IMG/VR virus record: IMGVR_UViG_3300030310_000017
Coordinates: 1-44,763 of that record
DNA from: a virus
Taxonomy: Duplodnaviria > Heunggongvirae > Uroviricota > Caudoviricetes
Length of the DNA stretch: 44,763 nucleotides
Reading direction: 5' to 3' (one strand)
The position numbers were made by a program, and so were the translations under genes. The notes under the pieces were generated by a model that was given only the letters and a program-made list of their open reading frames with translations, ran no database searches and had not been told where the DNA came from. Shown here in pieces: positions 2,206 through 41,466 of the stretch (the stretch's first letter is position 1; each line of letters begins with the position of its first letter).

Positions 2206-4415
2206 GCTGTTTGCTCCTGTGCTGCGGTGAGGGCGGTGAGGCGTTCGGTTTTGATTTCATTCAAACGGCGCAGGCGCGAACCAAGATAAGTTGAATACTC
2301 CTTATCACCTTTGGATTCTGCGGCCTTGCGGTGAACTTCTACTTCCCGCGCAATAAGGCCATAGACTTTATTAACTTCATTGGGGGTTACGGCTGCAGCC
2401 AGTGTTTTGGCAACACCTGAGAGTCGTTCATCCAGTTCTTCACGCAGTCGGGTAGCATCCTCTGCTTTCTCGCTTGCCTTCTTAATACTGTATTCTGTAT
2501 TCAGCTCGGCGGTGTAGGCACTATCGTTATGCATATCCATATAAACATCTGCCGCAAATCCCAGATGAGATAGTGCTTTGACGGTGGCATCAGTAAGAGA
2601 CTTTTTGGAGGCCTCTTTTTCCATTACCAGTGCCCCTTTGTTATTTTTTGATATGTAATCCGTGTGGCCATATGACGGAATAAATCCTTTCACTCCGTTC
2701 CAGATGTACCAGAGATCTATCCGGATGGTGTGTACTGACAGGCAGAACAGGGAACCGTCAGCATCCCTGACAGGTTTTTGTCCAATAATTTTCCCTGTCT
2801 GATCCTGTATAGGTTCAAGTAATGGCACACCGCGATCCACTCGCTCCTCCTTGATTTCAACTCCCCAACCAATGCCTTCCATTCCCAGCACTTCAGTCGC
2901 ACGCATCAAAATATATTGTGCGCGTATGGAGTGCAGTCCTGCACCGTAATCATTATGTGTGACATACGCAGGATCGGTCCGCTGAACGCGATTCCAGATA
3001 GCCAAATTTGCTTTGCTCTGGTCATCATTCATTGCTGACAGATAATGCTCCATGCGAATTGATGCAGTTTTTTCCTCGGCATGGGGCGGCTCAACCAGCG
3101 CGTCAACGTTCTGCACCAGATCCTTTACCTGCTCGCTAAGTTTTTCTTGTGGAGGAGTCTCTTCTGCCGGGGTAATAGCTGCAGGTTCCCTCTGTGAGAC
3201 GGCGTTATTTTCAGGTACGTCATACACATGGCGAGGCGTGATAAACTGCTCACGCAACTGCTGCAAACTACGTTCTCCAGCATTTGCAGCTTCGCTTTTT
3301 TCACCCTGATTTGAGGGTGTTTCTGACATCATCCCATCAATTGAGAATCGCCCGCCGCCGTGGTTGGTGACTTTTACATCATCCTTTGGTGCTGCTTCCT
3401 TTGACTTCTCTTCAACAGCATTTGCATCACGCTGCCCGTTAGCTTGCAGCCAGTTGTCGATGTGACTGCGCAGGGATTGCGGGAAGTGGTACGTGTCTTT
3501 TGCGGGGGCGCTCTGAATAACACCGAATACTGATGCGCGGTCATAGGCAAGGATCTGATCCGTTGTGCGCAAGGCCATTGACCAGCGTTTAAAATCCTCC
3601 CGATCCTGGCTGATTATTTCGTCTGCCGCTTTCAGGGCGCTGGGGGAGATTTTTTCCGGGCCAACGGGTAACAGAGCGCAGGCAATTTCACGATCCAGTG
3701 TAGCGTGAGTCTGTTTGTAAGGACGTGCGGACGGTTTTACCTCCGGCAGCATTTCATCGCGTTTACCGGGATTCTCTACCCATTTTTTTATAAATTTGGA
3801 GATAGTCCAACTGGTCGGGTTTTGTTCCTGGGTATCGCAACTTGCCAAAATTGCATGTACCAGATTATTCAATCCAGCAATATGCATGTACTCGATGGGC
3901 TTACACGCCACCATGGCATCAAGAACGATGCGGTTAAACGCGTCAACCTCATCCTCACTGTCAGTATCACTGTTGTCGAGCATCTCCAGGTATTCACGCG
4001 TCTGCGCAAGCAATTCACTGTCGACTTCGTTGGCGTCGTGGCTGAACAGCAGAACGGCGGCGAATCGTTCACGAGCCGGCAGTTTCATCAGGTCGTTAAC
4101 CTGTGCGATATCTGCTGAACCGCTATCTACAACGGGGGTGTTAACTACCCATTTTTCGCCATCAAAACTGTGTTCTGTGGCGAACGTCTCATCAAACTCA
4201 CCAACGCCTGGGCGCGGTTGGCCCAGGGCATCTTCCCAGATTTTAGGTTTGAAATAGTTGTCGCCGTGGTCAGGGTAGGCTTCCCACAATTTGCCGATGA
4301 TGATGTTCTCGGCAACTTTTTTGTTAGGGGCGTCGATGGCGATGGCCAGCGCCGGGATCGCGCCGTTTTTGAGCGCGCCTTTTTTCGCTTCTAACAAGCC
4401 GTTAAAAATGGTCAT
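2202..4415 (-). CDS. Large early protein with a putative ERF/Rad52-like single-strand-annealing region near the C-terminus
   Basis: 737-aa ORF in the early leftward operon. The C-terminal segment (KALSHLGFAADVYMDMHND) loosely resembles the conserved core of phage ERF-type annealing proteins; the N-terminal ~450 aa are unassigned. The CDS is solid, the function tentative. Confidence 0.5.
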   Translation of the reverse strand: MTIFNGLLEAKKGALKNGAIPALAIAIDAPNKKVAENIIIGKLWEAYPDHGDNYFKPKIWEDALGQPRPGVGEFDETFATEHSFDGEKWVVNTPVVDSGSADIAQVNDLMKLPARERFAAVLLFSHDANEVDSELLAQTREYLEMLDNSDTDSEDEVDAFNRIVLDAMVACKPIEYMHIAGLNNLVHAILASCDTQEQNPTSWTISKFIKKWVENPGKRDEMLPEVKPSARPYKQTHATLDREIACALLPVGPEKISPSALKAADEIISQDREDFKRWSMALRTTDQILAYDRASVFGVIQSAPAKDTYHFPQSLRSHIDNWLQANGQRDANAVEEKSKEAAPKDDVKVTNHGGGRFSIDGMMSETPSNQGEKSEAANAGERSLQQLREQFITPRHVYDVPENNAVSQREPAAITPAEETPPQEKLSEQVKDLVQNVDALVEPPHAEEKTASIRMEHYLSAMNDDQSKANLAIWNRVQRTDPAYVTHNDYGAGLHSIRAQYILMRATEVLGMEGIGWGVEIKEERVDRGVPLLEPIQDQTGKIIGQKPVRDADGSLFCLSVHTIRIDLWYIWNGVKGFIPSYGHTDYISKNNKGALVMEKEASKKSLTDATVKALSHLGFAADVYMDMHNDSAYTAELNTEYSIKKASEKAEDATRLREELDERLSGVAKTLAAAVTPNEVNKVYGLIAREVEVHRKAAESKGDKEYSTYLGSRLRRLNEIKTERLTALTAAQEQTA

Positions 4416-11497: not shown

Positions 11498-11655
11498 TGT
11501 TAGGCACGGCCACATTCGCATTATGGTGGGCTGTGTGGGGGCTTCTGCGGAAGCGCCGGGTTCACTTAGCCGGTTACGCCAACCCTGCACAGTTCACCAC
11601 CAGATGATTGGCGTCGCTGGTGGTGATGAAAAAAACACTAAGTGAGGCCACTGCG

Positions 11656-12444
11656 ATGACAATCCAAATATCTGCGGAATCCCTTTCTCCGCTACATCAT
11701 AACCAACTTCCCGTCATCACTACTGAATTGCTTGCCAGTTTGTATGGCACGGAAGTAAATGGTATCCAGCAAAACTTCAAGCGCAACATCGCCAGATTTG
11801 TCGTAGGAAAGCATTTTTTTAAGCTGGAAGGTAATGAATTACGCGACTTCAAAAACAGACTGACAGATAGTCAGTCAGTTGCTAAACATACCCGATCCCT
11901 CATTCTCTGGACAGAACGCGGCGCAGCTCGCCATGCCAAAATGCTGGAAACAGAACAGGCCTGGGAAGTTTTCGAAAAGCTGGAAGATTGTTATTTTAGC
12001 CAGCGTCCAGAGAGGCGGAGTACAACTACCGATGACCGTACTCCCTTACGTGATGCCGTTAATATGCTGGTCGGTAAGAAAGGCATGATGTATCCCGATG
12101 CCTACACCATGATTCATCAACGCTTCGCCGTCTCTCACATAGAACAACTGTCACAGACGCAAATGTTAGAGGCGATTGAATACATCCACTGCCTGCTACT
12201 CGATGAAAATCAGCCAACCATTCCAGATTTTTCTTTTATCACCACTATCAAAAATGGAAAAGTGACCAGGATGCGCCATGTTGCCAAAGGCGAACATCTG
12301 ATGACGTTTGACGCTTTCAAAGAGATCGCTGAGCGGGCAGGGTATCTGGTGATCCACAGCGACAACCTGCGAAGTATGACACTGGATAAATTGATGGTAA
12401 TGGGGAAAAAGTCTGCTGTATCTGTTGCTGATTCAGCATTTTGA
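11656..12444 (+). CDS. Phage antirepressor-type protein (ORF6N-like N-terminal domain)
   Basis: An ATG at 11656 preceded by GTGAGG (the ORF track starts at 11608). The N-terminus (LASLYGTEVNGIQQNFKRNIARFVVGKHFFKLEGNEL) fits the ORF6N/antirepressor fold pattern. A 9-bp perfect inverted repeat (CACCACCAG..CTGGTGGTG) lies just upstream. Confidence 0.55.
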   Translation: MTIQISAESLSPLHHNQLPVITTELLASLYGTEVNGIQQNFKRNIARFVVGKHFFKLEGNELRDFKNRLTDSQSVAKHTRSLILWTERGAARHAKMLETEQAWEVFEKLEDCYFSQRPERRSTTTDDRTPLRDAVNMLVGKKGMMYPDAYTMIHQRFAVSHIEQLSQTQMLEAIEYIHCLLLDENQPTIPDFSFITTIKNGKVTRMRHVAKGEHLMTFDAFKEIAERAGYLVIHSDNLRSMTLDKLMVMGKKSAVSVADSAF

Positions 12445-12475: not shown

Positions 12476-12565
12476 TTTGCGCTTAAAAAGGTATTTAGTC
12501 ACAACCAGCACGAGGCCGAATACTCTGTCAAAGTACCGCCCATGTAAAACTGTAACGTATGTACT
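12476..12565. repeat. Direct repeat copy A (~90 bp, ~85% identical to copy B)
   Basis: TTGCGCTTAAAAAGGTATTTAGTCACAACCAGCACGAGGCCGAATACT...GTACCGCCCATGTAAAACTGTAACGT aligns with 16202-16292. Confidence 0.65.
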
Positions 12566-12621
12566 TGATGACTAAGCTGGCACTAGGTTAACACCAGGCG
12601 CCAGCTTGAAGGAAACTTCAG

Positions 12622-13545
12622 TTATTGGTTTCTGAGGAAAGCGATTCTTGAAAGGGTCATTTGCGTCTGGCAGTCGACCATTTTCTTGACTTCAGCATCT
12701 GTTCCCTGCATTGAAACTTTACCGCACATAGCATCCTTAGTTTTGATCCACTGACGCTGAGAAGGCAGCAACTCTTTTTTCTTCGCCGGCGTTAACCTGC
12801 CCCAGACTGTATTCAAATCAGAGTCAGCATTCGCAAATGCCATTCGGGACTGATCAAGGCTTTCAGCTTTTTGCGGCTGAAGTTGTGCCTGCCTCTCTAT
12901 TTGCTTCTCCGCCTCATACCTGGCCTGTTCCTGTGCCCTGAGTTGCACCTGTTGTTCCGCTTCAATTTGACTCTGTTGGGCATCCTTAGCCTGCTGGATT
13001 TTCTGCTGCTCAACGATCGGGTTGATAATGGAAAGCGATGTCAGTAAAGCGGCGCCCACTGATATCGGATTATCAGAAGAGGTTTTTACAAAAACGTTTT
13101 TCTGATCGTCGGTCGCCTGCACGGTGTAGGTGATACGTTTTGAAAAGGCGTTTGCGTTGTTCTCCAAAAACAGATTTTCCATTTGCTTATCGAGATTACG
13201 ATTAAAATTCTTTCTGTAAGCATCAGAAAGCTGGACGTACTCGTTCGCAGGTAGAGTCATCGTCACGGTCCCTTCACAAGTTTTCATTGTGCTGCCCGTG
13301 TCACTTGATATTGTGGAGATTTCAGAGACGGCTAGTTTGATCTTGTCCAGTGTGCTTCGTTTGGTCTGATTAGTGACATCAGGGTATTTATCGACCTGTT
13401 CAGAGAGTCCTTCATAAGCAAATTTTTTTAATAAATCCATGAGAGCTGATTGGGTCATTTCCGAAGAACAACCGATCTCATCTTTTTTGTTATCACAGCC
13501 TGTAAGGGCAATGGCGAGTAAGAGTACTGAGTATTTTAATCTCAT
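12622..13545 (-). CDS. Lipoprotein with a C-terminal DUF1311/LprI-like (lysozyme-inhibitor-like) region and a Gln-rich coiled-coil middle
   Basis: The signal peptide ends in a lipobox (LLAIALTGC). The C-terminus (WIKTKDAMCGK...MVDCQTQMTLSRIAFL) resembles the DUF1311 pattern. The gene is AT-rich, reverse-oriented and sits inside the repeat-bracketed island. Confidence 0.6.
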   Translation of the reverse strand: MRLKYSVLLLAIALTGCDNKKDEIGCSSEMTQSALMDLLKKFAYEGLSEQVDKYPDVTNQTKRSTLDKIKLAVSEISTISSDTGSTMKTCEGTVTMTLPANEYVQLSDAYRKNFNRNLDKQMENLFLENNANAFSKRITYTVQATDDQKNVFVKTSSDNPISVGAALLTSLSIINPIVEQQKIQQAKDAQQSQIEAEQQVQLRAQEQARYEAEKQIERQAQLQPQKAESLDQSRMAFANADSDLNTVWGRLTPAKKKELLPSQRQWIKTKDAMCGKVSMQGTDAEVKKMVDCQTQMTLSRIAFLRNQ

Positions 13546-14301
13546 GAATTCCCTTTAGAGTAAGGATTGGTTTTTAAGACGCGGTCTGTAATCAGTTCCG
13601 AAAGCTACAGTAAACAACGCTGAGCACTGAACGCATCACAGGCAAGGTAAAAGGTGATATCGGCAAAGGCTGTGAAACCTTTAATTCAACAGATGGGAAC
13701 GGTATGCACAGGATCCTGTAACGACGCTCCCAAAACCGGAAACCTGCAGGGCATGTTTTCGCTGCTGAACTTAATATACGAACCTGCACTATCATGAACA
13801 TATTTTATATCGTTATACCCCGAGTGATTGTGCCCGGCAATGGATAGTGTCCTGGAGGAATTATTTCTAATGTAAAAGGAAGATATTTAATTTCGATGTG
13901 GGATTATTACCTGTCTATAAGAACAATGACTTTATCTGGCAGTAAGCAGACATCTATTAGCTTACTGAAGGGGGGCTGTGATTTGACCATTAACGGCATG
14001 AGATATATTGTCTATTGGTGATTGTTCTGAGGCCGATATCACGTTAACGACCAAGTAAAATAACATGAAAAATTATTTATTAATGATTGCCAGCATTAAA
14101 TGTAGTGATACCTCATTAGCAGGGTGCTCCGCAATGACTGCGATGAACTAAAAAATCAGTCATAACCATGAAAAAAACAAGTGTATCAGCGAAATTAAAT
14201 CTGGTGAAAGCATTTAATTACTTGTTAATGACGCAATAAAAACATACTATGGAAATGTAACAGCTAATCTACAGTTCTTGTCAATAGGGGCGCACAAGAA
14301 A

Positions 14302-14892
14302 ATGTTAAATGAATTTAAGGAAAAGCTACTATCCGACGATATCCGCGATGTCTACCAACGATACCTTTTAGGACATGACATCTGGTATTTTCGGGAACAA
14401 AAAAAATCAATAACCTTTGCTAAAGATTATGATGAGTTTAAGCTATATATGTCTAAGAAGCTTGAAATTCATGTAAATAATATTGCAATTGTTGGAAGTG
14501 CTAAGATGGGATTCAGCTTGAGCCCTGATAAAAATTATCGAACATTTAACGATGAGTCAGATATAGACTTGGTTTTAGTATCCGACAGAATTTATAAATC
14601 TTCCTGGATGGCATTTATTGAATTACAATCAAAGAATTATTTGCCTGTATATGCTCCTGTAGCTAAAAATATTTTCAAAGGATTCGTGTCATTGAAGGAG
14701 TTAGATATTAGAGTCGATTTTTTTAATAAATGGTCCCGTAACGTTGAACCATTAAAAAAAGACATTCAAACTATTTTTGGAATACCTAACGACATCAACT
14801 ACAGAATTTATGACTCTTGGGAGTCCGTTGAACGCTATCACATAGCTGGGTTGAATAGTCTAAAAGATAAGTTACAAGGACAATTGATATGA
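14302..14892 (+). CDS. Minimal nucleotidyltransferase-fold protein (Pol-beta superfamily; MNT/SMODS-like)
   Basis: Contains a GS...D-x-D signature (IVGSAKMGFSL...DESDIDLVLV). Very AT-rich coding. The stop overlaps the start of the downstream DUF262 gene (ATGA). The track's TTG start at 14278 is an alternative to the ATG at 14302. Confidence 0.55.
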   Translation: MLNEFKEKLLSDDIRDVYQRYLLGHDIWYFREQKKSITFAKDYDEFKLYMSKKLEIHVNNIAIVGSAKMGFSLSPDKNYRTFNDESDIDLVLVSDRIYKSSWMAFIELQSKNYLPVYAPVAKNIFKGFVSLKELDIRVDFFNKWSRNVEPLKKDIQTIFGIPNDINYRIYDSWESVERYHIAGLNSLKDKLQGQLI

Positions 14893-15947
14893 GAGCTATT
14901 GATCTAATTAAAGTTGAATCGAAAGACATTAAATGGTTGACGGATAATTTGAAATCAGGTGTTATTACAGTTGATAATTCATATCAGAGAAAATATATCT
15001 GGCAGCAAAAAGACCAAGTGGCCTTAATTGAGACAATATTAATTGGCTACCCAATCCCTGAGATTTACCTTTGGGCAAATAATACTGATCCTGACACTGG
15101 AGATACTAAATATTCAATTGTAGATGGACAGCAAAGGCTAACCACAATCCAGCGATATTTAAATGATGAGTTTAAGTTAAGCAAAGCAGCTATAGATGAT
15201 AAAGAAGCCGACTATAGTGGGAAAATTTTTTCAGAATTGTCGGCAGATAACAAACGTGATTTTTGGCGATACCAATTCTCATCCAGATTTATTAATGAAT
15301 CATTGAGATATGATGAGATTGCAAAGTTATTTTTACGTCTAAATAGAACAAATACTACGTTAAATCCTCAAGAACTTCGTAATGCTGAATTTAATGGCGA
15401 GTTTTTAAGATTAGCCGAAGAAATTGCACAAAATGAATTTTGGGATAATTATAAGATATTTACTCAGTCAGATATCCGTCGGATGCAAGACATTCAATTC
15501 ATCAGCACATTATTGATTTTCTTACGAATGGGTATTGAGCAGGATAATACACAAAAATCAATTAATCGAGTGTATGATCAATACAATGAGAATTACCCTG
15601 AGGCGACTGAGGACAGAATTGTCTTTAACGAAGTGTTAAGGATCATATCTCAAATTATCAACAATAAACAAGTATTAGAATCAGTTGTAAAGAAAAAAGG
15701 CCATTTGTATTTTATATTTGTGCTGGCATACTATTATTTACAGCTTAGTAAATCTAAGCTTGTTGATATGAATGTTATTAGTTCAAAGCTCGAGGATTTT
15801 TTTAATATTTATGAGTTAAATGAACAAGATAACCCCCATCCACTGGTTGAGGAATATAGATTCCTCAGCCAAGAGGGTTCAAAGAAGAGTCATAACAGAC
15901 AGCGTAGATTTGATATTTTGAAAGAATTTTGCTCTTTACATGATTAA
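14889..15947 (+). CDS. DUF262 (ParB/GmrSD N-terminal-like) domain protein without a recognisable DUF1524/HNH nuclease domain
   Basis: Carries the hallmark motifs QRKYIWQ...LIETILIGYPIPEIYLW...YSIVDGQQRLTT. At 352 aa it ends in a helical extension rather than a nuclease domain. An AAGGA ribosome-binding site is upstream. Confidence 0.75.
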   Translation: MRAIDLIKVESKDIKWLTDNLKSGVITVDNSYQRKYIWQQKDQVALIETILIGYPIPEIYLWANNTDPDTGDTKYSIVDGQQRLTTIQRYLNDEFKLSKAAIDDKEADYSGKIFSELSADNKRDFWRYQFSSRFINESLRYDEIAKLFLRLNRTNTTLNPQELRNAEFNGEFLRLAEEIAQNEFWDNYKIFTQSDIRRMQDIQFISTLLIFLRMGIEQDNTQKSINRVYDQYNENYPEATEDRIVFNEVLRIISQIINNKQVLESVVKKKGHLYFIFVLAYYYLQLSKSKLVDMNVISSKLEDFFNIYELNEQDNPHPLVEEYRFLSQEGSKKSHNRQRRFDILKEFCSLHD

Positions 15948-18310: not shown

Positions 18311-18487
18311 TATCCCCGCGATGCTCCGGTAGCCTCACCATCTCGCGGGGCTTGCCTTTCCAGGTGATTGACATGATTACCAGTTTCTGAATACCGTTTT
18401 CAACGGTACTGAGCACCCAGGTGACGGTGAAACGTGAAGAATATCGCACCTTATTAAAGGTGCAGCCCCTCAAAAGAGGGGCTATTC

Positions 18488-18721
18488 TCACTTCTGCAGT
18501 ATCTCGCCAATACCTGCCAGGTTCTCATCCATCTTGTCACCGTTTTCGATAAGGATGGAGTTGAGCCGATTCAGTTGCATAGCAATTTCAAGTTTGATTA
18601 AAGTATCTACCGATACATCAGTTTCTTTTGCTAACTTAGTAAGAGCCTCAGCCCGATTGGCTAAATTAAAATCATCGAACTCATAACGACTTCTGCACGG
18701 CTGGTTGCCTAACGTACCCAT
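18488..18721 (-). CDS. Hypothetical protein
   Basis: 77-aa ORF on the reverse strand in the accessory region. Confidence 0.35.
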   Translation of the reverse strand: MGTLGNQPCRSRYEFDDFNLANRAEALTKLAKETDVSVDTLIKLEIAMQLNRLNSILIENGDKMDENLAGIGEILQK

Positions 18722-18962
18722 AGTGATTCCTCATGATATAAAGACCCAACAATATAAATTACCAGGCACATCATAAGATAGGGGCCCAGCCCATATTTTC
18801 AAATATTTGCAAGTATCACCGTTCAGTCTAAAGACTTGGATGGTTGTTTCACGAGTCATAACAAAACCCTGACTCGGCGGGTTTTCTTTTTATAGAACTC
18901 TGCGATGCGACAACGAATAATAAATTGTGCAAATAGTGCTGTTTTTATTATTCGAGGTGGAT

Positions 18963-22055: not shown

Positions 22056-22327
22056 TGACCCTGCACTCTGTCCTCATCAATGCCAATGCAATTATCTGTC
22101 TGATGCTGGCACTGCGGTTGATGTTTTTTCAAAAAACAGGCCGCTATCGTTTTTTTATCTCACTAACTGCTTACCTGGCGATTCTGTCTGCTGCGTGGAT
22201 AGCCCTACGAATTTTTTACGGGAAATATACGCAGGTTGATCCCGCAGAGTTCTTTCTCAACCTCACCATCTGTATTGCTGTCTGGCGGGCACGAGGAAAT
22301 ATTTCAAAAATAACAGGAGACAGGTAA
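22055..22327 (+). CDS. Holin-like small membrane protein
   Basis: 90-aa protein with two or three hydrophobic segments, overlapping the upstream holin stop. Confidence 0.45.
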   Translation: MTLHSVLINANAIICLMLALRLMFFQKTGRYRFFISLTAYLAILSAAWIALRIFYGKYTQVDPAEFFLNLTICIAVWRARGNISKITGDR

Positions 22328-22806
22328 TGACCGATCCTAAATGGCTAATTGAGGCACGAAAAAATCTCGGCATCCGGGAAATGAAAGGGAAGCAACATGC
22401 TGCAGAAATTGTGCAGTACTGGAAAGATATCAAACGCGGCGGTATTAAGGATGACGAAACACCATGGTGCGCCGCCTTCACCGGAGCAATGCTGGAACGT
22501 GTTGGTATTCGCTCAACGCGTTTTGAGTCTGCGAATTCTTATCTCGATTGGGGTAATGAACTGAAGGAACCTGCCTATGGATGCATTGCTATTCTGTCTC
22601 GGTCTGGCGGTGGCCACGTTGGTTTTGTTGTCGGGAAAAATGCCGCCGGGGATTTAATGATTTTGGGGGGCAACCAGGCAGATGAAGTAAATATCAAAGC
22701 TTTTCCTCGTTCCCGCGTAACAGGCTATCGCTGGCCAGCAGGTCAAACGGATGTTCCACAATCACTTCCATTGGTGAATGCTGAGAAATCTATCTCAGAA
22801 GCGTAG
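22327..22806 (+). CDS. Endolysin, peptidase type (CHAP/NlpC-P60-like Cys-His)
   Basis: 159-aa protein with a PWCAAF cysteine and a GGHVGFVV histidine motif, directly after the holin genes. Confidence 0.55.
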   Translation: MTDPKWLIEARKNLGIREMKGKQHAAEIVQYWKDIKRGGIKDDETPWCAAFTGAMLERVGIRSTRFESANSYLDWGNELKEPAYGCIAILSRSGGGHVGFVVGKNAAGDLMILGGNQADEVNIKAFPRSRVTGYRWPAGQTDVPQSLPLVNAEKSISEA

Positions 22807-26243: not shown

Positions 26244-27814
26244 CTGCTCCACAGCAGCTGCTCGGGCCTGACGGTAAAACGCCACTACGCCGTTTTGCGG
26301 GGTATAACGGCGGCGGTCCCGGTTTCGGTGGCCAGCTGATTGACTGGAATGCGCCACAGCAAAGCGCCGATGCGGCACTGCTGCCTAATTTTTATCGCGG
26401 TAACGCGCGAGCAGACGATCTCGTTCGCAATAACGGTGTCGCGTCGAACGCCGTGCAGCTGCACCAGGATCATATTGTCGGCAATCTGTTTAAATTGAGT
26501 TATCGCCCTAACTGGCGTTACCTAGGGATATCTCGCGAGGACGCCAGGGCGCTGGCGCGTGACGTTGAGGTCGCGTGGACTGAATACGCTGAGGACCCTC
26601 ACTGCACGATTGATATCGAGCGGAAACGGACGTTCACAATGATGATCCGCGAGGGTGTGGCCACTCACGCGTTTAACGGTGAAACCTGCGTACAACCGGT
26701 CTGGGAAAGCAGTACCGGTAGCGTTTTTCGGACGCGATTCAAAATGGTTTCGCCGAAACGGATTCGAAATCCGGGTTACGCAGCTGACACCCGATTTCGC
26801 CGCGCCGGTGTTGATATCGATAAAAATGGAGCCGCAGTGGGCTACTGGATAGCCGAGGACACCTATCCACTCGGTGGAATCGGCAAGTGCCGGCGTATAC
26901 CAGCGCAGCTCAGCAGCGGCAGACACGCATTCATTCACATATTCGAGCCGCTCGAGGACGGACAGACCCGCGGAGATAACATTTTCTACAGCGTGATGGA
27001 GCGTCTGAAAATGCTCGACACGCTGCAGCAAACACAACTGCAGAGCGCCATTGTGAAGGCGATGTATGCCGCGACAATCGAATCAGAGCTCGACAGCCAG
27101 CAGGCGTTTGAATATATCGCCGGCGCGGGTACTGATATCGACTCGAACCCACTGAATTCGTTTATTCAGAGTTACGTGACGTACTACAACGGCGCAAACA
27201 TTAAATTAGGCGGCGTGAAAGTCCCTCACCTGCACCCCGGCGACAAACTCAGTTTACAGACCGCTCAGAACGCTGACGCTGGTTTCAGTTCGCTGGAAAA
27301 ATCACTCCTGCGTTACGTTGCCGCTGGCGTCGGCGCGTCATACGAAGAACTGAGTCGGGACTACAGCCAGGTCAGTTACTCCAGCGCCCGGGCCAGCGCG
27401 AACGTGAGCTGGCGATTTTTTATGGGCCGTCGACGTTTTATCGCCGCGAGACAAGCGTCGCTGATGTTTTGTTGCTGGTTTGAAGAGGCGCTGGCACGCG
27501 GAATTATCACCCTGCCACGCTCAGCGGTCCGGTCATTTTATGAGGCGCGGAACTCCTGGACGAACGCGCTTTGGATAGGTGCAGGTCGCATGGCCATCGA
27601 CGGACTGAAAGAGGTTCAGGAGAGTGCAATGCGTATCACAACTGGCCTCAGCACGTATCAGAACGAACTGGCGCTGCAGGGACAGGATTACGAGGAGGTT
27701 ATGGAGCAACAGGAATACGAAATTCAGCGCCGGCGTGAAATGGGGTTGAGCGAGCCGTCCTGGTCTGTCTCTCATCCATCAAATACCAACGATAACGGCT
27801 GGGGAGGTAACTGA
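26240..27814 (+). CDS. Portal protein, lambda gpB-like
   Basis: 524-aa ORF in the lambda gpB position, with overlapping start/stop to both neighbours. Confidence 0.85.
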   Translation: MTAPQQLLGPDGKTPLRRFAGYNGGGPGFGGQLIDWNAPQQSADAALLPNFYRGNARADDLVRNNGVASNAVQLHQDHIVGNLFKLSYRPNWRYLGISREDARALARDVEVAWTEYAEDPHCTIDIERKRTFTMMIREGVATHAFNGETCVQPVWESSTGSVFRTRFKMVSPKRIRNPGYAADTRFRRAGVDIDKNGAAVGYWIAEDTYPLGGIGKCRRIPAQLSSGRHAFIHIFEPLEDGQTRGDNIFYSVMERLKMLDTLQQTQLQSAIVKAMYAATIESELDSQQAFEYIAGAGTDIDSNPLNSFIQSYVTYYNGANIKLGGVKVPHLHPGDKLSLQTAQNADAGFSSLEKSLLRYVAAGVGASYEELSRDYSQVSYSSARASANVSWRFFMGRRRFIAARQASLMFCCWFEEALARGIITLPRSAVRSFYEARNSWTNALWIGAGRMAIDGLKEVQESAMRITTGLSTYQNELALQGQDYEEVMEQQEYEIQRRREMGLSEPSWSVSHPSNTNDNGWGGN

Positions 27815-29121
27815 TGCCGTGGAACCATTTTCCGTATATCGCCGCCCGGGCGTTTAATCAACCGCTTTTACTGGAACCCGTCTACGCACGGGTATTTTTT
27901 TCGGCGCTGAGCGACCGGTTCGGTACCGGGCGACTGATTGATACAGCGTCCGGTGAGGTAATGAGCAGCGACGAAATGAACGCGCTCGCGATGAGCTGGG
28001 ACGGCAGCGAGCGACCGCGCCAGAAAGCGTACCGCGTGGAGCGTGGTATAGCCGTGCTGCCGGTTACGGGGACGCTTGTTCATAAATTGGGTTATATCAA
28101 TCCAGTCAGTGGAATGAGTGGTTATGACGGAATCGCAAAACGTCTGCAGCAGGCGATTTCTGATCCCGATGTTAAGGGGATCCTGCTGGATATTGACTCC
28201 CCTGGCGGTGAGGTCGCCGGCGCGTTTGATACCGCTGATTTAATCGCACGGGCGCGAGAGCAAAAACCGGTGTGGGCGCTGGCCAGCGATACGGCCTGCA
28301 GCGCCGCATATTTGCTGGCGTCAGCGTGTTCGCGCCGGCTGATAACGCAGACCGGCACAGTTGGTTCAATCGGTGTCCTGATGGCTCACCGCTGCGTCGA
28401 AAAGGCGCTGGAGATTGCCGGCGTTGACGTGACGCTGATTTACGCCGGCGCGCACAAAGTCGACGGGAACCCGTATTCCCAGCTGCCCGACGACGTTCGC
28501 GACGAATTCCAGCTGAGTATTAACAGCACACGCGAGCAGTTCGCGCAAAAGGTATCAGATTATACCGGTCTGAAAAAATCCAGGGTGCTGGCCACGGAGG
28601 CCGCAGTATTTATCGGCGCGGACGCGATTAAATCTGGTCTCGCTGATCAACTCGTTAATTACGCGGACGCTATCGCAGTGATGGCCGACGCACTGAAACC
28701 AAAAATGGAGCGATTTATGCCAGGTACAGAAACCACGGCGAAGACCACGACCACAGAACAAACCGCGGCCACGACTACGGTCGCGCAGGTTGAGTTCAAC
28801 GAGAAACAGATTCGCGCTGACGCTGTGTCGAGCGAACTGGCGCGCGTGATGGCCATCATCAATTGTCCCGAAGCTGTTGGGCGCGAGGCGCAGGCAAAAG
28901 CGCTCGCTGGCGTCCCCGGGATGACCGTCGAGCAGGCGCAGCTGGTACTCGCGGCAGCACCGCAAACAGCGCAGGCGCGGACAGAAACGGCGCTCGATAC
29001 ACTAATGAGCACTGAATCACCGGAAACTATTCAGGATGCCGGAAGCACCACGGCAACAGGAACAACCGCAAACGTCTCGATGCTCGTCGCGGCGGGGCGT
29101 TCAATTTTAGGGGATGAATAA
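27814..29121 (+). CDS. Prohead protease / scaffold, lambda gpC-Nu3-like (S49 ClpP-type peptidase)
   Basis: S49-type segment GILLDIDSPGGEVAGAFDTADLIARAREQKPVWALASDTACSAAYLLASACSR followed by an Ala/Thr-rich scaffold-like C-terminus. Confidence 0.8.
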   Translation: MPWNHFPYIAARAFNQPLLLEPVYARVFFSALSDRFGTGRLIDTASGEVMSSDEMNALAMSWDGSERPRQKAYRVERGIAVLPVTGTLVHKLGYINPVSGMSGYDGIAKRLQQAISDPDVKGILLDIDSPGGEVAGAFDTADLIARAREQKPVWALASDTACSAAYLLASACSRRLITQTGTVGSIGVLMAHRCVEKALEIAGVDVTLIYAGAHKVDGNPYSQLPDDVRDEFQLSINSTREQFAQKVSDYTGLKKSRVLATEAAVFIGADAIKSGLADQLVNYADAIAVMADALKPKMERFMPGTETTAKTTTTEQTAATTTVAQVEFNEKQIRADAVSSELARVMAIINCPEAVGREAQAKALAGVPGMTVEQAQLVLAAAPQTAQARTETALDTLMSTESPETIQDAGSTTATGTTANVSMLVAAGRSILGDE

Positions 29122-34765: not shown

Positions 34766-35392
34766 ATGACAAGTCAAAGCGTACTGCCTCCGAACGCAAT
34801 AACCCCCGAGAGAGCGCTGGAATCTGTTTTATCTCACGTTGGCGATCTGCCTGGCGATATTCGAATTATTAAAAATCCCGATTTGTGTCCTGCAAATCTG
34901 TTGCCGTGGCTGGCGTGGGAATACGCCGTCACCTACTGGAACCCCGACTGGAGCGAGCAGCAAAAACGCGAAATTATTAAAGCAGCTGCGTGGCAGAACA
35001 AGCACCGCGGAACGCGTGGAGCTGTTGAACGAGCGTTATTAACAGTTGGATTTGAGAGCAAAATGAGAGAGTGGTTCGAAGCCGCGCCCAGGGACGACCC
35101 GTATACATTCGCAATTAAAATATATCTGCTAAAAAGTATGGGGTTAGATTTAGAGCTATTGAATACATTTATTGCACAAATATTTGATGCAAAAAATTGT
35201 CGCTCTTTATTAAAGGAAATAAATTTCGAAACAGGTGTGGAAGGGGAATTTTTTATAGCTGGAACTCCTTACACAAAAATAGGCGTAAATATACCGGCAG
35301 ATGGTGATGGTGGCGTGAAATTAAATGGCGGATTATATATGTCAGGCTCGCCAATCGTGAGTCTGTTAGTGGAGATTGGACCCAATGGCTAA
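34766..35392 (+). CDS. Tail protein, P2 gpI-like
   Basis: Contains NPDLCPANLLPWLAWEYAV, close to the P2 gpI motif NPDTCPANLLPWLAWAFSV. Confidence 0.75.
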   Translation: MTSQSVLPPNAITPERALESVLSHVGDLPGDIRIIKNPDLCPANLLPWLAWEYAVTYWNPDWSEQQKREIIKAAAWQNKHRGTRGAVERALLTVGFESKMREWFEAAPRDDPYTFAIKIYLLKSMGLDLELLNTFIAQIFDAKNCRSLLKEINFETGVEGEFFIAGTPYTKIGVNIPADGDGGVKLNGGLYMSGSPIVSLLVEIGPNG

Positions 35393-41080: not shown

Positions 41081-41253
41081 TACAAAATCAAGCGCTACCA
41101 GAGCACTTAACAAGTATAAAAATAATAAAAAAAACTACGAGCATAAATGTAAAACAACCTGATGGTATTTTTTTTGACGCCGAAATACTAATACCTCTCC
41201 GACTACTAAAATTAATTCTCATTATGAAATCCTTTTAATTAATGGGGCCCCAA

Positions 41254-41466
41254 ATGATTACATACACTACACGGGACGGTGACCGTCTCGATCAGATCTG
41301 CCTTGCTGTCTACGGGAGAACAGCAAAAACGACAGAAACCGTGTTATATCAAGTTTTAAATTACGGCGTAACGGATATGTGTGCCGTGTTTCGTGCAGGA
41401 GAAAAAATTGTTTTACCAGAAATCGACCCCGAACCGGCTAAAAAAGAAACGCAATTATGGGATTGA
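41254..41466 (+). CDS. Tail protein, P2 gpX-like (LysM-like)
   Basis: Contains GDRLDQICLAVYGRT...TVL, matching the P2 gpX pattern. The track start at 41242 is an alternative. Confidence 0.7.
   Translation: MITYTTRDGDRLDQICLAVYGRTAKTTETVLYQVLNYGVTDMCAVFRAGEKIVLPEIDPEPAKKETQLWD

What the first reader, a model, noticed from the sequence alone, without database searches (positions are those of the whole stretch)
12622..13545. Prophage-borne lipoprotein with an LprI/DUF1311-like C-terminus
A lipobox lipoprotein with a Gln-rich coiled-coil middle and a DUF1311-like C-terminal region (a family that includes a lysozyme inhibitor) is encoded on the reverse strand inside the accessory island. This is a likely lysogenic-conversion gene, possibly envelope protection or superinfection exclusion.
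Basis: partly seen in the sequence, partly recalled or inferred. Interest (0 to 1): 0.45.

Follow-up and report, generated by a model that had tools for sequence, protein, structure and literature searches.

The report
Prophage-borne ScwA-like periplasmic lipoprotein
A resident virus in the E. coli chromosome carries a self-contained gene for a membrane-tethered cell-envelope protein; it is distantly related to a Salmonella protein that tunes cell-wall-cutting enzymes, and its database label "lysozyme inhibitor" rests on weak ground.

Summary
Window 12622-13545 (-) is a real 307-aa gene under purifying selection. It has a canonical lipobox (LTGC17, Asp at +2) and a Gln-rich long helix. Its C-terminal LprI/DUF1311 domain scores E 5e-8, above Pfam's cut-off.

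It lies in a lambdoid prophage, antisense to the early operon, at the conserved left edge of a hypervariable island. RefSeq already names it "lysozyme inhibitor LprI family protein", and PHROGs lists it as unknown (phrog_5094).

New here:
- Residues 18-175 form an unannotated, disulphide-bearing alpha/beta domain. It defines a family of about 224 clusters, mostly lipoproteins.
- The whole protein aligns end to end with Salmonella ScwA, with all four Cys matching. ScwA raises levels of the lytic transglycosylase MltD and gave no lysozyme protection.
- The MliC domain, the part of M. tuberculosis LprI credited with lysozyme inhibition, is absent.
- The gene moves as a 1.2-kb cassette between chromosomal sites (Citrobacter, Pantoea, Proteus) and prophages (E. 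coli, Enterobacter).

Most likely it is a tethered binder or modulator of peptidoglycan-cleaving enzymes, expressed from the prophage. Superinfection exclusion and T6SS immunity remain open. Modest interest; function untested.

The parts
12573..13776 (-). Mobile 1.2-kb cassette: 5' region, ORF and 3' hairpin
   Evidence: This is the stretch shared at 82-90% nucleotide identity with chromosomal loci (Citrobacter, Y. rohdei, Leclercia, Pseudescherichia) and with Enterobacter prophages. Homology stops at these borders.
12622..13545 (-). ORF, 307 aa plus stop: ScwA-like LprI/DUF1311 lipoprotein
13495..13545 (-). Signal peptide and lipobox (aa 1-17, L-T-G-C17). The mature protein starts C-D-N, with Asp at +2.
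   Evidence: Read from the sequence. A rule-based check passes. Cys17 is invariant.
13021..13494 (-). N-terminal alpha/beta domain (aa 18-175), not covered by Pfam or NCBIfam, with invariant C26 and C90
12859..13020 (-). Gln/Glu/Ala-rich helical linker (aa 176-229), variable in length
   Evidence: 33% Gln. Single helix 160-221 in the model. 45-83 aa in homologues, and an 8-aa in-frame duplication in one E. coli allele. Absent from ScwA.
12625..12858 (-). LprI/DUF1311 three-helix domain (aa 230-307) with invariant C274 and C292
   Evidence: Pfam PF07007, E 5.4e-8. Match to 3GI7 with probability 1.00. Invariant W248, QRQWI 263-267, C274 and C292.
13546..13776 (-). Conserved 5' region of the cassette; presumed promoter or leader, not mapped
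   Evidence: 83% mean column identity across 9 loci from different contexts. No sigma-70 consensus found on this strand. No Rfam family. No covariation support for a structure.
12575..12606 (-). Stable 3' hairpin just after the stop codon, with no U-tract
   Evidence: The 66-nt stretch 12560-12625 containing it folds at -25 kcal/mol, z = -4.6 against shuffles. The stem is kept through paired changes in homologues.

Best explanation
The gene encodes a periplasmic lipoprotein.

Architecture (shown or predicted from sequence):
- After lipidation at Cys17, the Asp at +2 should keep it in the inner membrane.
- A compact alpha/beta domain, probably with a C26-C90 disulphide, sits next to the anchor.
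- A helix of about 8-9 nm, variable in length and rich in Gln, acts as a spacer.
- The C-terminal DUF1311/LprI three-helix bundle (C274, C292) is thereby held roughly at the level of the peptidoglycan layer.

Relationship (shown): the protein is a distant, lipid-anchored, linker-extended homologue of Salmonella ScwA.

Mechanism (inferred): it most likely binds periplasmic peptidoglycan-cleaving enzymes of the lytic-transglycosylase/muramidase class and changes their level or activity. It is not a classical lysozyme inhibitor.

Expression (inferred): it is carried as an autonomous cassette, antisense to the prophage early operon. It is therefore probably expressed in the lysogen as a 'moron' that alters cell-wall homeostasis or tolerance to wall-degrading enzymes.
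For: Architecture:
- Lipobox and Asp+2.
- AlphaFold2 models with pLDDT 84 and 91 show an N-domain, helix 160-221 and a three-helix C-domain.
- Pfam LprI scores above its cut-off, and the fold matches 3GI7.

Homology to ScwA:
- BLASTP E 2e-10, end to end. C26/C30, C90/C100, C274/C237 and C292/C259 all align, and the only large gap is the linker.
- The N-domain profile matches ScwA at 87.5% probability, E 3.6e-6.

Function of relatives:
- ScwA is periplasmic and depends on DsbA. It raises MltD levels and affects Slt, AmiC, NlpC, PBP4 and AmpH. Overproduction lyses cells (PMC7933661).
- Small DUF1311 proteins sit beside periplasmic wall-targeting T6SS effectors that carry LysM or transglycosylase-like domains, and in one case neutralise the effector: PMC12981562, PMC8867033, PMC9796082.
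- In remote relatives the N-domain is also fused to SH3_3, TPR, YARHG and TonB_C domains.

Autonomy and selection:
- The 1.2-kb cassette occurs in both chromosomal and prophage contexts.
- The 5' region is conserved and there is a 3' hairpin.
- dN/dS is 0.11-0.22.
- The ORF6N|LprI junction is the same in three prophages whose adjacent islands differ.
Against: - No binding partner is known, and none could be computed here.
- Identity to ScwA is only 21%, and ScwA is soluble, not lipidated.
- The mechanism of ScwA itself is unresolved: effects on protein levels were measured, but no direct interaction was shown.
- No conserved neighbouring gene points to a partner.
- No promoter was found and there is no expression evidence.
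- Some E. coli and Citrobacter alleles are truncated or frameshifted inside the LprI domain, so the gene is dispensable in some lineages (P0071, P0088).
- Residues 160-178 are borderline hydrophobic (Kyte-Doolittle 1.64), although the model packs them onto the N-domain.
- The Asp+2 inner-membrane retention rule is recalled from the E. coli literature and was not tested.
Confidence: 0.4

Rival explanations
1. Superinfection exclusion. The prophage lipoprotein blocks incoming phages. It could neutralise a virion-borne wall hydrolase (as T4 Spackle does to gp5 lysozyme) or obstruct DNA passage at the inner membrane.
For: - It is prophage-borne in E. coli and Enterobacter, always between the replication and Q modules and antisense.
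- It abuts a hypervariable island that here holds a GmrSD_N/NsnA-like gene.
- DUF1311 proteins neutralise periplasmic wall-targeting toxins.
- Known phage lipoproteins such as Llp and Cor act in exclusion (from memory).
Against: - The family is chromosomal and not phage-linked in Citrobacter, Pantoea, Proteus, Morganella and Y. rohdei.
- No PADLOC model matches.
- There is no structural relative among viral proteins.
- No sequenced-phage record carries the gene.
- Unlike the island cargo, it is constant across prophages.
Confidence: 0.15
2. Orphan T6SS immunity protein. It protects the lysogen from lysozyme- or transglycosylase-type effectors injected by competitors.
For: - DUF1311/LprI proteins are encoded next to such effectors. 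Etsi4 rescues periplasmic Etse4 toxicity (PMC12981562).
- Similar pairs and orphan copies are described in S. Dublin and Pantoea and beside WHIX effectors.
Against: - No effector gene lies next to it in any of the contexts inspected.
- Etsi4 is only remotely similar: BLASTP E 0.11, and Etsi4 itself scores below the Pfam cut-off.
- Known immunity proteins of this type are small (~146-149 aa). This protein is 307 aa with an extra domain and a linker.
Confidence: 0.15
3. A true inhibitor of host (c-type or g-type) lysozyme, as the RefSeq product name implies.
For: - The Pfam family is named after M. tuberculosis LprI, which is reported to inhibit lysozyme (cited).
- One Enterobacter prophage that carries the homologue also carries an Ivy gene.
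Against: - The MliC domain of M. tuberculosis LprI is absent. PMC7933661 states that MliC suffices for lysozyme resistance and that no experiment supports that role for the LprI domain.
- The ScwA deletion mutant shows unchanged lysozyme/EDTA sensitivity.
Confidence: 0.07
4. A passenger gene. An ordinary enterobacterial envelope gene was picked up by the phage and gives the lysogen or phage no specific benefit.
For: - The same cassette is a stand-alone chromosomal gene in several genera.
- Truncated alleles circulate in E. coli.
- It is present in only about 8% of complete E. coli genomes (439 of 5426).
Against: - Purifying selection acts on prophage copies too: dN/dS is 0.11 against the Enterobacter prophage copy.
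- It keeps a fixed position in three prophages whose neighbouring islands have been replaced.
- It is found independently in prophages of two genera at the same map position.
Confidence: 0.15

Closest known systems
ScwA (SL1344_0490) of Salmonella Typhimurium (PMC7933661)
   Same: - Same two-domain order: an N-terminal alpha/beta domain followed by a C-terminal LprI/DUF1311 domain.
- All four conserved Cys align.
- BLASTP E 2e-10 end to end. N-domain profile match 87.5%, E 3.6e-6.
- Both are periplasmic and of low G+C (44.7% here; 43.1% for scwA).
   Different: - Only 21% identity.
- ScwA has an ordinary signal peptide and is soluble; this protein has a lipobox with Asp+2.
- ScwA lacks the ~50-residue Gln-rich helix.
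- scwA is a fixed chromosomal gene between copA and ybaP; this gene is prophage-borne.
- Function is known only for ScwA, and only at the level of phenotypes.
LprI (Rv1541c) of Mycobacterium tuberculosis, founder of Pfam PF07007
   Same: It is a lipoprotein with a DUF1311 domain.
   Different: LprI also has an MliC domain (PF09864), to which lysozyme inhibition is attributed. That domain is absent here. The DUF1311 domain is N-terminal in LprI according to UniRef names ('LprI-like N-terminal domain'), but C-terminal here.
[not shown]
   Same: They are periplasmic DUF1311 domains linked to neutralising wall-targeting enzymes.
   Different: They are small (~146-149 aa) and sit beside an effector gene. 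This protein is 307 aa with an extra N-domain and linker, has no effector neighbour, and is not detectably similar to Etsi4 beyond the fold family.
PP_0307 of Pseudomonas putida, PDB 3GI7 (DUF1311 structure)
   Same: The fold of residues ~230-305 matches: Foldseek probability 1.00, target TM-score 0.65, 15% identity.
   Different: It is a single-domain protein of unknown function. It says nothing about the N-domain or linker.
Phage-encoded envelope 'morons': lambda Bor, T5 Llp, Cor lipoproteins, T4 Spackle (from memory)
   Same: A small autonomous gene in a temperate-phage genome encodes a lipoprotein or periplasmic protein that acts on the host envelope. Spackle inhibits a wall hydrolase.
   Different: There is no sequence or fold relation. 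Those proteins are phage-specific, whereas this family is mainly chromosomal.
PHROG phrog_5094 (unknown function)
   Same: A direct member: E 2e-182.
   Different: The PHROG profile starts at residue 36, so its members were annotated without the signal peptide and lipobox.

Membership tests
Pfam PF07007 LprI/DUF1311 | HMM score above the gathering threshold | tested here: met
   33.6 bits against a cut-off of 22, E 5.4e-8, residues 225-304.
Pfam PF07007 LprI/DUF1311 | Helical-bundle fold like the solved DUF1311 structure, with a conserved Cys pair | tested here: met
   3GI7 matches with probability 1.00 and target TM-score 0.65. C274 and C292 are invariant.
M. tuberculosis LprI-type lysozyme inhibitor | MliC domain (PF09864) alongside DUF1311 | tested here: not met
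   No MliC hit even at E<=10.
M. tuberculosis LprI-type lysozyme inhibitor | Inhibits lysozyme activity | not testable with these tools
   This needs an enzyme assay. The homologue ScwA showed no lysozyme phenotype.
Bacterial lipoprotein (Lgt/LspA/Lnt substrate) | Positively charged n-region, hydrophobic core, and a lipobox [LVI][ASTVI][GAS]C within the first ~35 residues | tested here: met
   R2/K4 and VLLLAIALTG-C17; the rule check passes. The Cys is invariant.
Bacterial lipoprotein (Lgt/LspA/Lnt substrate) | Actual lipidation, and inner-membrane retention through Asp+2 | not testable with these tools
   Asp18-Asn19 follow Cys17. The retention rule is recalled from the E. coli literature. 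Relatives in Erwinia have N at +2 and those in Proteus and Morganella have G.
ScwA family | Full-length homology, covering the N-domain as well as the LprI domain | tested here: met
   BLASTP E 2e-10 over residues 11-304 against 15-271. hhalign of the N-domain gives 87.5%, E 3.6e-6.
ScwA family | Four conserved Cys (two disulphides) | tested here: met
   C26, C90, C274 and C292 align with C30, C100, C237 and C259. Disulphide formation itself was not tested.
ScwA family | Controls the levels of MltD and other wall hydrolases | not testable with these tools
   Only experiments can show this.
T6SS effector-immunity pair (DUF1311 immunity) | Encoded next to a cognate effector or inside a T6SS island | tested here: not met
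   No effector or T6SS gene lies within 7-20 kb in E. coli, Citrobacter, Enterobacter, Pantoea, Morganella, Proteus, Yersinia or one unnamed source.
T6SS effector-immunity pair (DUF1311 immunity) | Sequence similarity to a validated immunity protein (Etsi4) | tested here: not met
   BLASTP E 0.11.
Phage moron (autonomously expressed lysogenic-conversion gene) | Own promoter and terminator, independent of phage operons | tested here: inconclusive
   For: antisense orientation, a conserved 230-bp 5' region and a 3' hairpin that travel with the ORF. Against: no sigma-70 consensus was found, and the hairpin lacks a U-tract.
Known anti-phage defence systems (PADLOC) | Match to a defence-protein model | tested here: not met
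   No family at E<=1e-3.
Spanin (Rz/Rz1 or unimolecular) | Located in the lysis cassette, with an outer-membrane lipoprotein plus an inner-membrane transmembrane segment | tested here: not met
   The gene lies ~8 kb upstream of the holin/endolysin genes, on the other strand. It has no C-terminal transmembrane segment. Homologues are chromosomal.

The most novel reading that the evidence does not exclude
A temperate phage has domesticated a ScwA-like envelope protein as a membrane-tethered decoy or inhibitor, held at peptidoglycan height. It would neutralise lytic transglycosylases or muramidases arriving from outside, namely virion-borne wall-piercing enzymes of superinfecting phages or T6SS muramidase effectors. 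That would be a new exclusion or immunity mechanism, analogous in function to T4 Spackle, and the variable helix length would tune its reach.
Probability: 0.12. Interest if true: 0.65.

Novelty: new member of a known kind. Interest (0 to 1): 0.33.

Why it matters
About 8% of complete E. coli genomes carry this gene, including ST131 bloodstream isolates. Its product name, "lysozyme inhibitor", is probably misleading.

Showing that it is a lipidated relative of ScwA gives a concrete and testable hypothesis: it modulates lytic transglycosylases and other wall hydrolases. ScwA is the only studied member of the architecture, and it affects Salmonella virulence.

It would also add a case of a prophage carrying a cell-wall-homeostasis factor rather than a toxin or a nucleic-acid defence. 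In addition, it defines an unannotated N-terminal domain family (~224 clusters) that Pfam lacks.

If the protein does nothing measurable in the lysogen, it is simply another hitch-hiking envelope gene.

Tried and rejected
Sequence searches:
- Against PDB sequences, with the protein and with the N-domain profile: only noise.
- NCBIfam: nothing above cut-off. PADLOC: nothing.
- Phage GenBank collection: no nucleotide match. tblastn gave only two 1.6-kb unannotated records at 35% identity over the LprI domain.
- A profile search with 134 remote relatives, meant to fish out ScwA, returned only the close family. ScwA was obtained instead from primer sequences in the paper's supplement plus a pattern scan of metagenomes.

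Fold searches:
- Full model against PDB by Foldseek: 3GI7 for the C-domain, and weak NTF2-like, VirB8 and PBP2a N-domain hits for the N-domain, all E>0.1.
- BFVD viral structures: nothing.
- The afdb50 library was unavailable.

Genomic context: eight genomic contexts were inspected and no neighbour recurs. The Morganella copy follows yfhM-pbpC, but the Proteus copy does not.

5' region: no Rfam family, no covariation support for a structure, and no sigma-70 consensus on the gene's strand. A sigmaE-like GGAACT motif seen by eye is not conserved and is wrongly spaced.

Hypotheses rejected:
- Spanin, on position, strand and lack of a transmembrane segment.
- Close kinship with Etsi4.
- A second transmembrane segment at 160-178: borderline hydropathy only, and the model packs it into the N-domain.

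Full report
**The feature.** Window 12622-13545 on the minus strand is an ATG-initiated ORF of 307 codons. AAGGG lies six bases before the start. The N-terminus MRLKYSVLLLAIALTG-C17 has a charged n-region, a hydrophobic core and the lipobox L-T-G-C, and it passes a PROSITE-type lipoprotein rule. The mature protein would begin C-D-N. By the E. coli sorting rule (recalled, not tested), Asp at +2 retains a lipoprotein in the inner membrane.

Pfam gives one significant hit: PF07007 LprI/DUF1311 at residues 225-304, E 5.4e-8, 33.6 bits against a cut-off of 22. There is no MliC domain. NCBIfam and PADLOC give nothing. PHROGs places the protein in phrog_5094, function unknown, E 2e-182. That profile starts at residue 36, so its members were annotated without the lipoprotein signal.

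**Structure.** An AlphaFold2 model from 23 homologues has mean pLDDT 84. It shows three parts:
- an alpha/beta domain at about residues 29-155;
- one continuous helix over 160-221;
- a three-helix C-terminal bundle at 230-305.

Modelled alone, the N-domain reaches pLDDT 91 and pTM 0.86. The C-domain matches the solved DUF1311 protein 3GI7 with Foldseek probability 1.00 and target TM-score 0.65.

The linker 176-226 is 33% Gln. It is 45-83 residues long in homologues, and one E. coli allele carries an in-frame 8-residue duplication. As a helix it spans about 8-9 nm. Whichever membrane holds the anchor, the DUF1311 domain would sit roughly at peptidoglycan height; this is an inference. Oligomeric coiled-coil formation is not shown.

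**Family.** Full-length homologues at 44-95% identity occur in Citrobacter, Enterobacter, Yersinia rohdei, Pantoea, Erwinia, Proteus and Morganella. Invariant residues include C17, C26, C90, C274, C292, the motif T78..D82..S85..C90, Q143-T145-D146-D147, and QRQWI 263-267.

An N-domain profile finds 224 cluster representatives among 1.84 billion proteins, 65 of them at E<=1e-10. Nearly all are 230-420 aa with the domain starting at about residue 20. Of 147 inspected, 130 have a lipobox. Of 134 scanned against Pfam, 65 carry LprI at the C-terminus, and others carry SH3_3, TPR, YARHG, cytochrome c or TonB_C.

Many relatives that lack the C-terminal Cys pair still keep both N-domain Cys. This argues for an intradomain C26-C90 disulphide. 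The ScwA paper inferred an interdomain pairing from a predictor.

**Closest studied relative.** I reconstructed peptides from mutagenesis primers in the supplement of PMC7933661 and scanned metagenome contigs with a back-translated pattern. This recovered the 275-aa gene between copA and ybaP, as the paper describes.

BLASTP of the window protein against ScwA gives E 2e-10, 21% identity, end to end. C26/C30, C90/C100, C274/C237 and C292/C259 are aligned, and the only large gap is the Gln-rich linker. The N-domain profile aligns to ScwA 27-159 at 87.5% probability, E 3.6e-6.

According to PMC7933661, ScwA:
- is periplasmic and depends on DsbA;
- raises MltD levels and alters Slt, AmiC, NlpC, PBP4 and AmpH;
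- lyses cells when overproduced;
- does not change lysozyme sensitivity when deleted.

That paper also notes that M. tuberculosis LprI owes its lysozyme inhibition to an MliC domain, and that no experiment supports the name for the LprI domain.

Separately, small DUF1311 proteins are immunity partners, or predicted partners, of periplasmic wall-targeting T6SS effectors. EHEC Etsi4 is only remotely similar to this protein.

**Context.** The window is a lambdoid prophage next to tRNA-Ser/mtfA. Its order is integrase, exonuclease, repressor region, RepO, DnaB, ORF6N, then LprI (antisense), a variable island, DUF1367, Q, holins, a CHAP/TIGR02594 endolysin, terminase and head genes.

RefSeq annotates the gene as 'lysozyme inhibitor LprI family protein'. 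439 of 5426 complete E. coli genomes carry at least 80% of the cassette, always on the chromosome, and these include ST131 strains.

Three prophages (the window, L001 and ST131 L031) share the ORF6N|LprI junction up to window ~13941-13981. They then differ completely until ~18417-18874. The gene is therefore a fixed feature at the edge of a hypervariable island, not part of its cargo.

The unit shared with other genera is window 12573-13776, made up of the ORF, 230 bp of 5' sequence and a 3' hairpin. Where that unit sits varies:
- Chromosomal and unrelated to phage in Citrobacter (between the fec operon and an MFS transporter gene), Pantoea, Proteus, Morganella (just after yfhM-pbpC) and Y. 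rohdei.
- In Enterobacter lambdoid prophages, again antisense between the replication and Q modules.

dN/dS is 0.11-0.22 against these copies in every part of the protein. Truncated or frameshifted alleles also exist (P0071, P0088).

**Interpretation.**
- Shown: the gene, its domains, its homology to ScwA, its mobility as a cassette, and purifying selection.
- Inferred: inner-membrane anchoring, the spacer role of the helix, expression in the lysogen, and binding or modulation of lytic-transglycosylase-type wall enzymes.

Superinfection exclusion, orphan T6SS immunity, true lysozyme inhibition and a passenger status remain possible, in that rough order of decreasing or equal weight. None is supported by a specific result here. 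The finding is real, but it is a member of a catalogued and poorly understood family.

Noticed in passing
window 13514-13545, 13041-13072, 12928-12959; also 2358-2389, 3725-3756, 27632-27663, 29083-29114, 35066-35097, 41229-41260: Native E. coli type I-E CRISPR arrays carry 32-nt spacers matching this prophage. The arrays lie next to cas1e/cas2e-iap or queE-ygcE. Three spacers fall inside the LprI ORF. Roughly 150 of the 587 genomes that 'hit' the cassette do so only through such spacers. Eight of nine protospacers are preceded by AAG or ATG. Matching spacers sit in adjacent runs (L028 sp4-6, L030 sp16-21), which looks like primed adaptation. The targeting covers the whole phage and is not specific to this gene.
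   Followed up: partly
window 14278-15947 (+): Two genes overlap by 4 bp. The first encodes 204 aa (phrog_32008, unknown function). The second encodes 352 aa with a GmrSD_N domain (E 1e-24) and a PADLOC NsnA match (E 4.6e-41). They are a candidate defence pair and form the first cargo of the variable island.
   Followed up: partly
window ~13942-18416/18873: This is a hypervariable island, completely different in three otherwise collinear prophages. In CFSAN061769 it holds HNH and GIY-YIG genes; in ST131 it holds an ImmA/IrrE gene and hypothetical genes. G+C is 40%, against 48% for the window.
   Followed up: partly
window 13546-13776: The 5' region of the cassette is about as conserved as the coding sequence across genera. 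A CCTT...AAGG hairpin could sequester the ribosome-binding site. A partly conserved reading frame runs on the opposite strand but is broken by stops in some loci. No promoter, RNA family or covariation was found.
   Followed up: partly
L020/L021 4332-8002 (Morganella): The Morganella homologue lies directly downstream of the alpha-2-macroglobulin (yfhM) and pbpC genes, a periplasmic defence and wall-repair pair. The arrangement is not conserved in Proteus.
   Followed up: no
L016 4178-4591 (Enterobacter prophage): An Enterobacter lambdoid prophage that carries the LprI-family gene also carries an Ivy (lysozyme inhibitor) gene near its Q/terminase region.
   Followed up: no
window 12625-13545 against the phrog_5094 profile; P0071, P0088, P0002: Three points on annotation and alleles. 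The PHROG profile begins at residue 36, so the lipoprotein signal is hidden by late start calls. A 259-aa truncated allele (stop inside the LprI domain) represents 166 member sequences in E. coli. One allele has an 8-aa tandem duplication in the linker.
   Followed up: partly
window 11608-12444 (+): The upstream neighbour is an ORF6N-domain protein (E 9e-22) that also matches the PADLOC candidate family PDC-S05 (E 1e-9). It converges on the LprI gene.
   Followed up: no
window 22327-22806 (+): The prophage endolysin is a TIGR02594/CHAP-type protein (CHAP E 1.5e-5, just under the Pfam cut-off), not a lysozyme or transglycosylase. The LprI-family protein is therefore unlikely to be an inhibitor of its own phage's lysin, if DUF1311 targets muramidases.
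   Followed up: no
P0121 cluster: A 356-aa paralogue with the same N-domain is listed as 'MULTISPECIES' across Citrobacter, Kluyvera, Klebsiella, Lelliottia and Yersinia enterocolitica. This suggests a second mobile member of the family.
   Followed up: no
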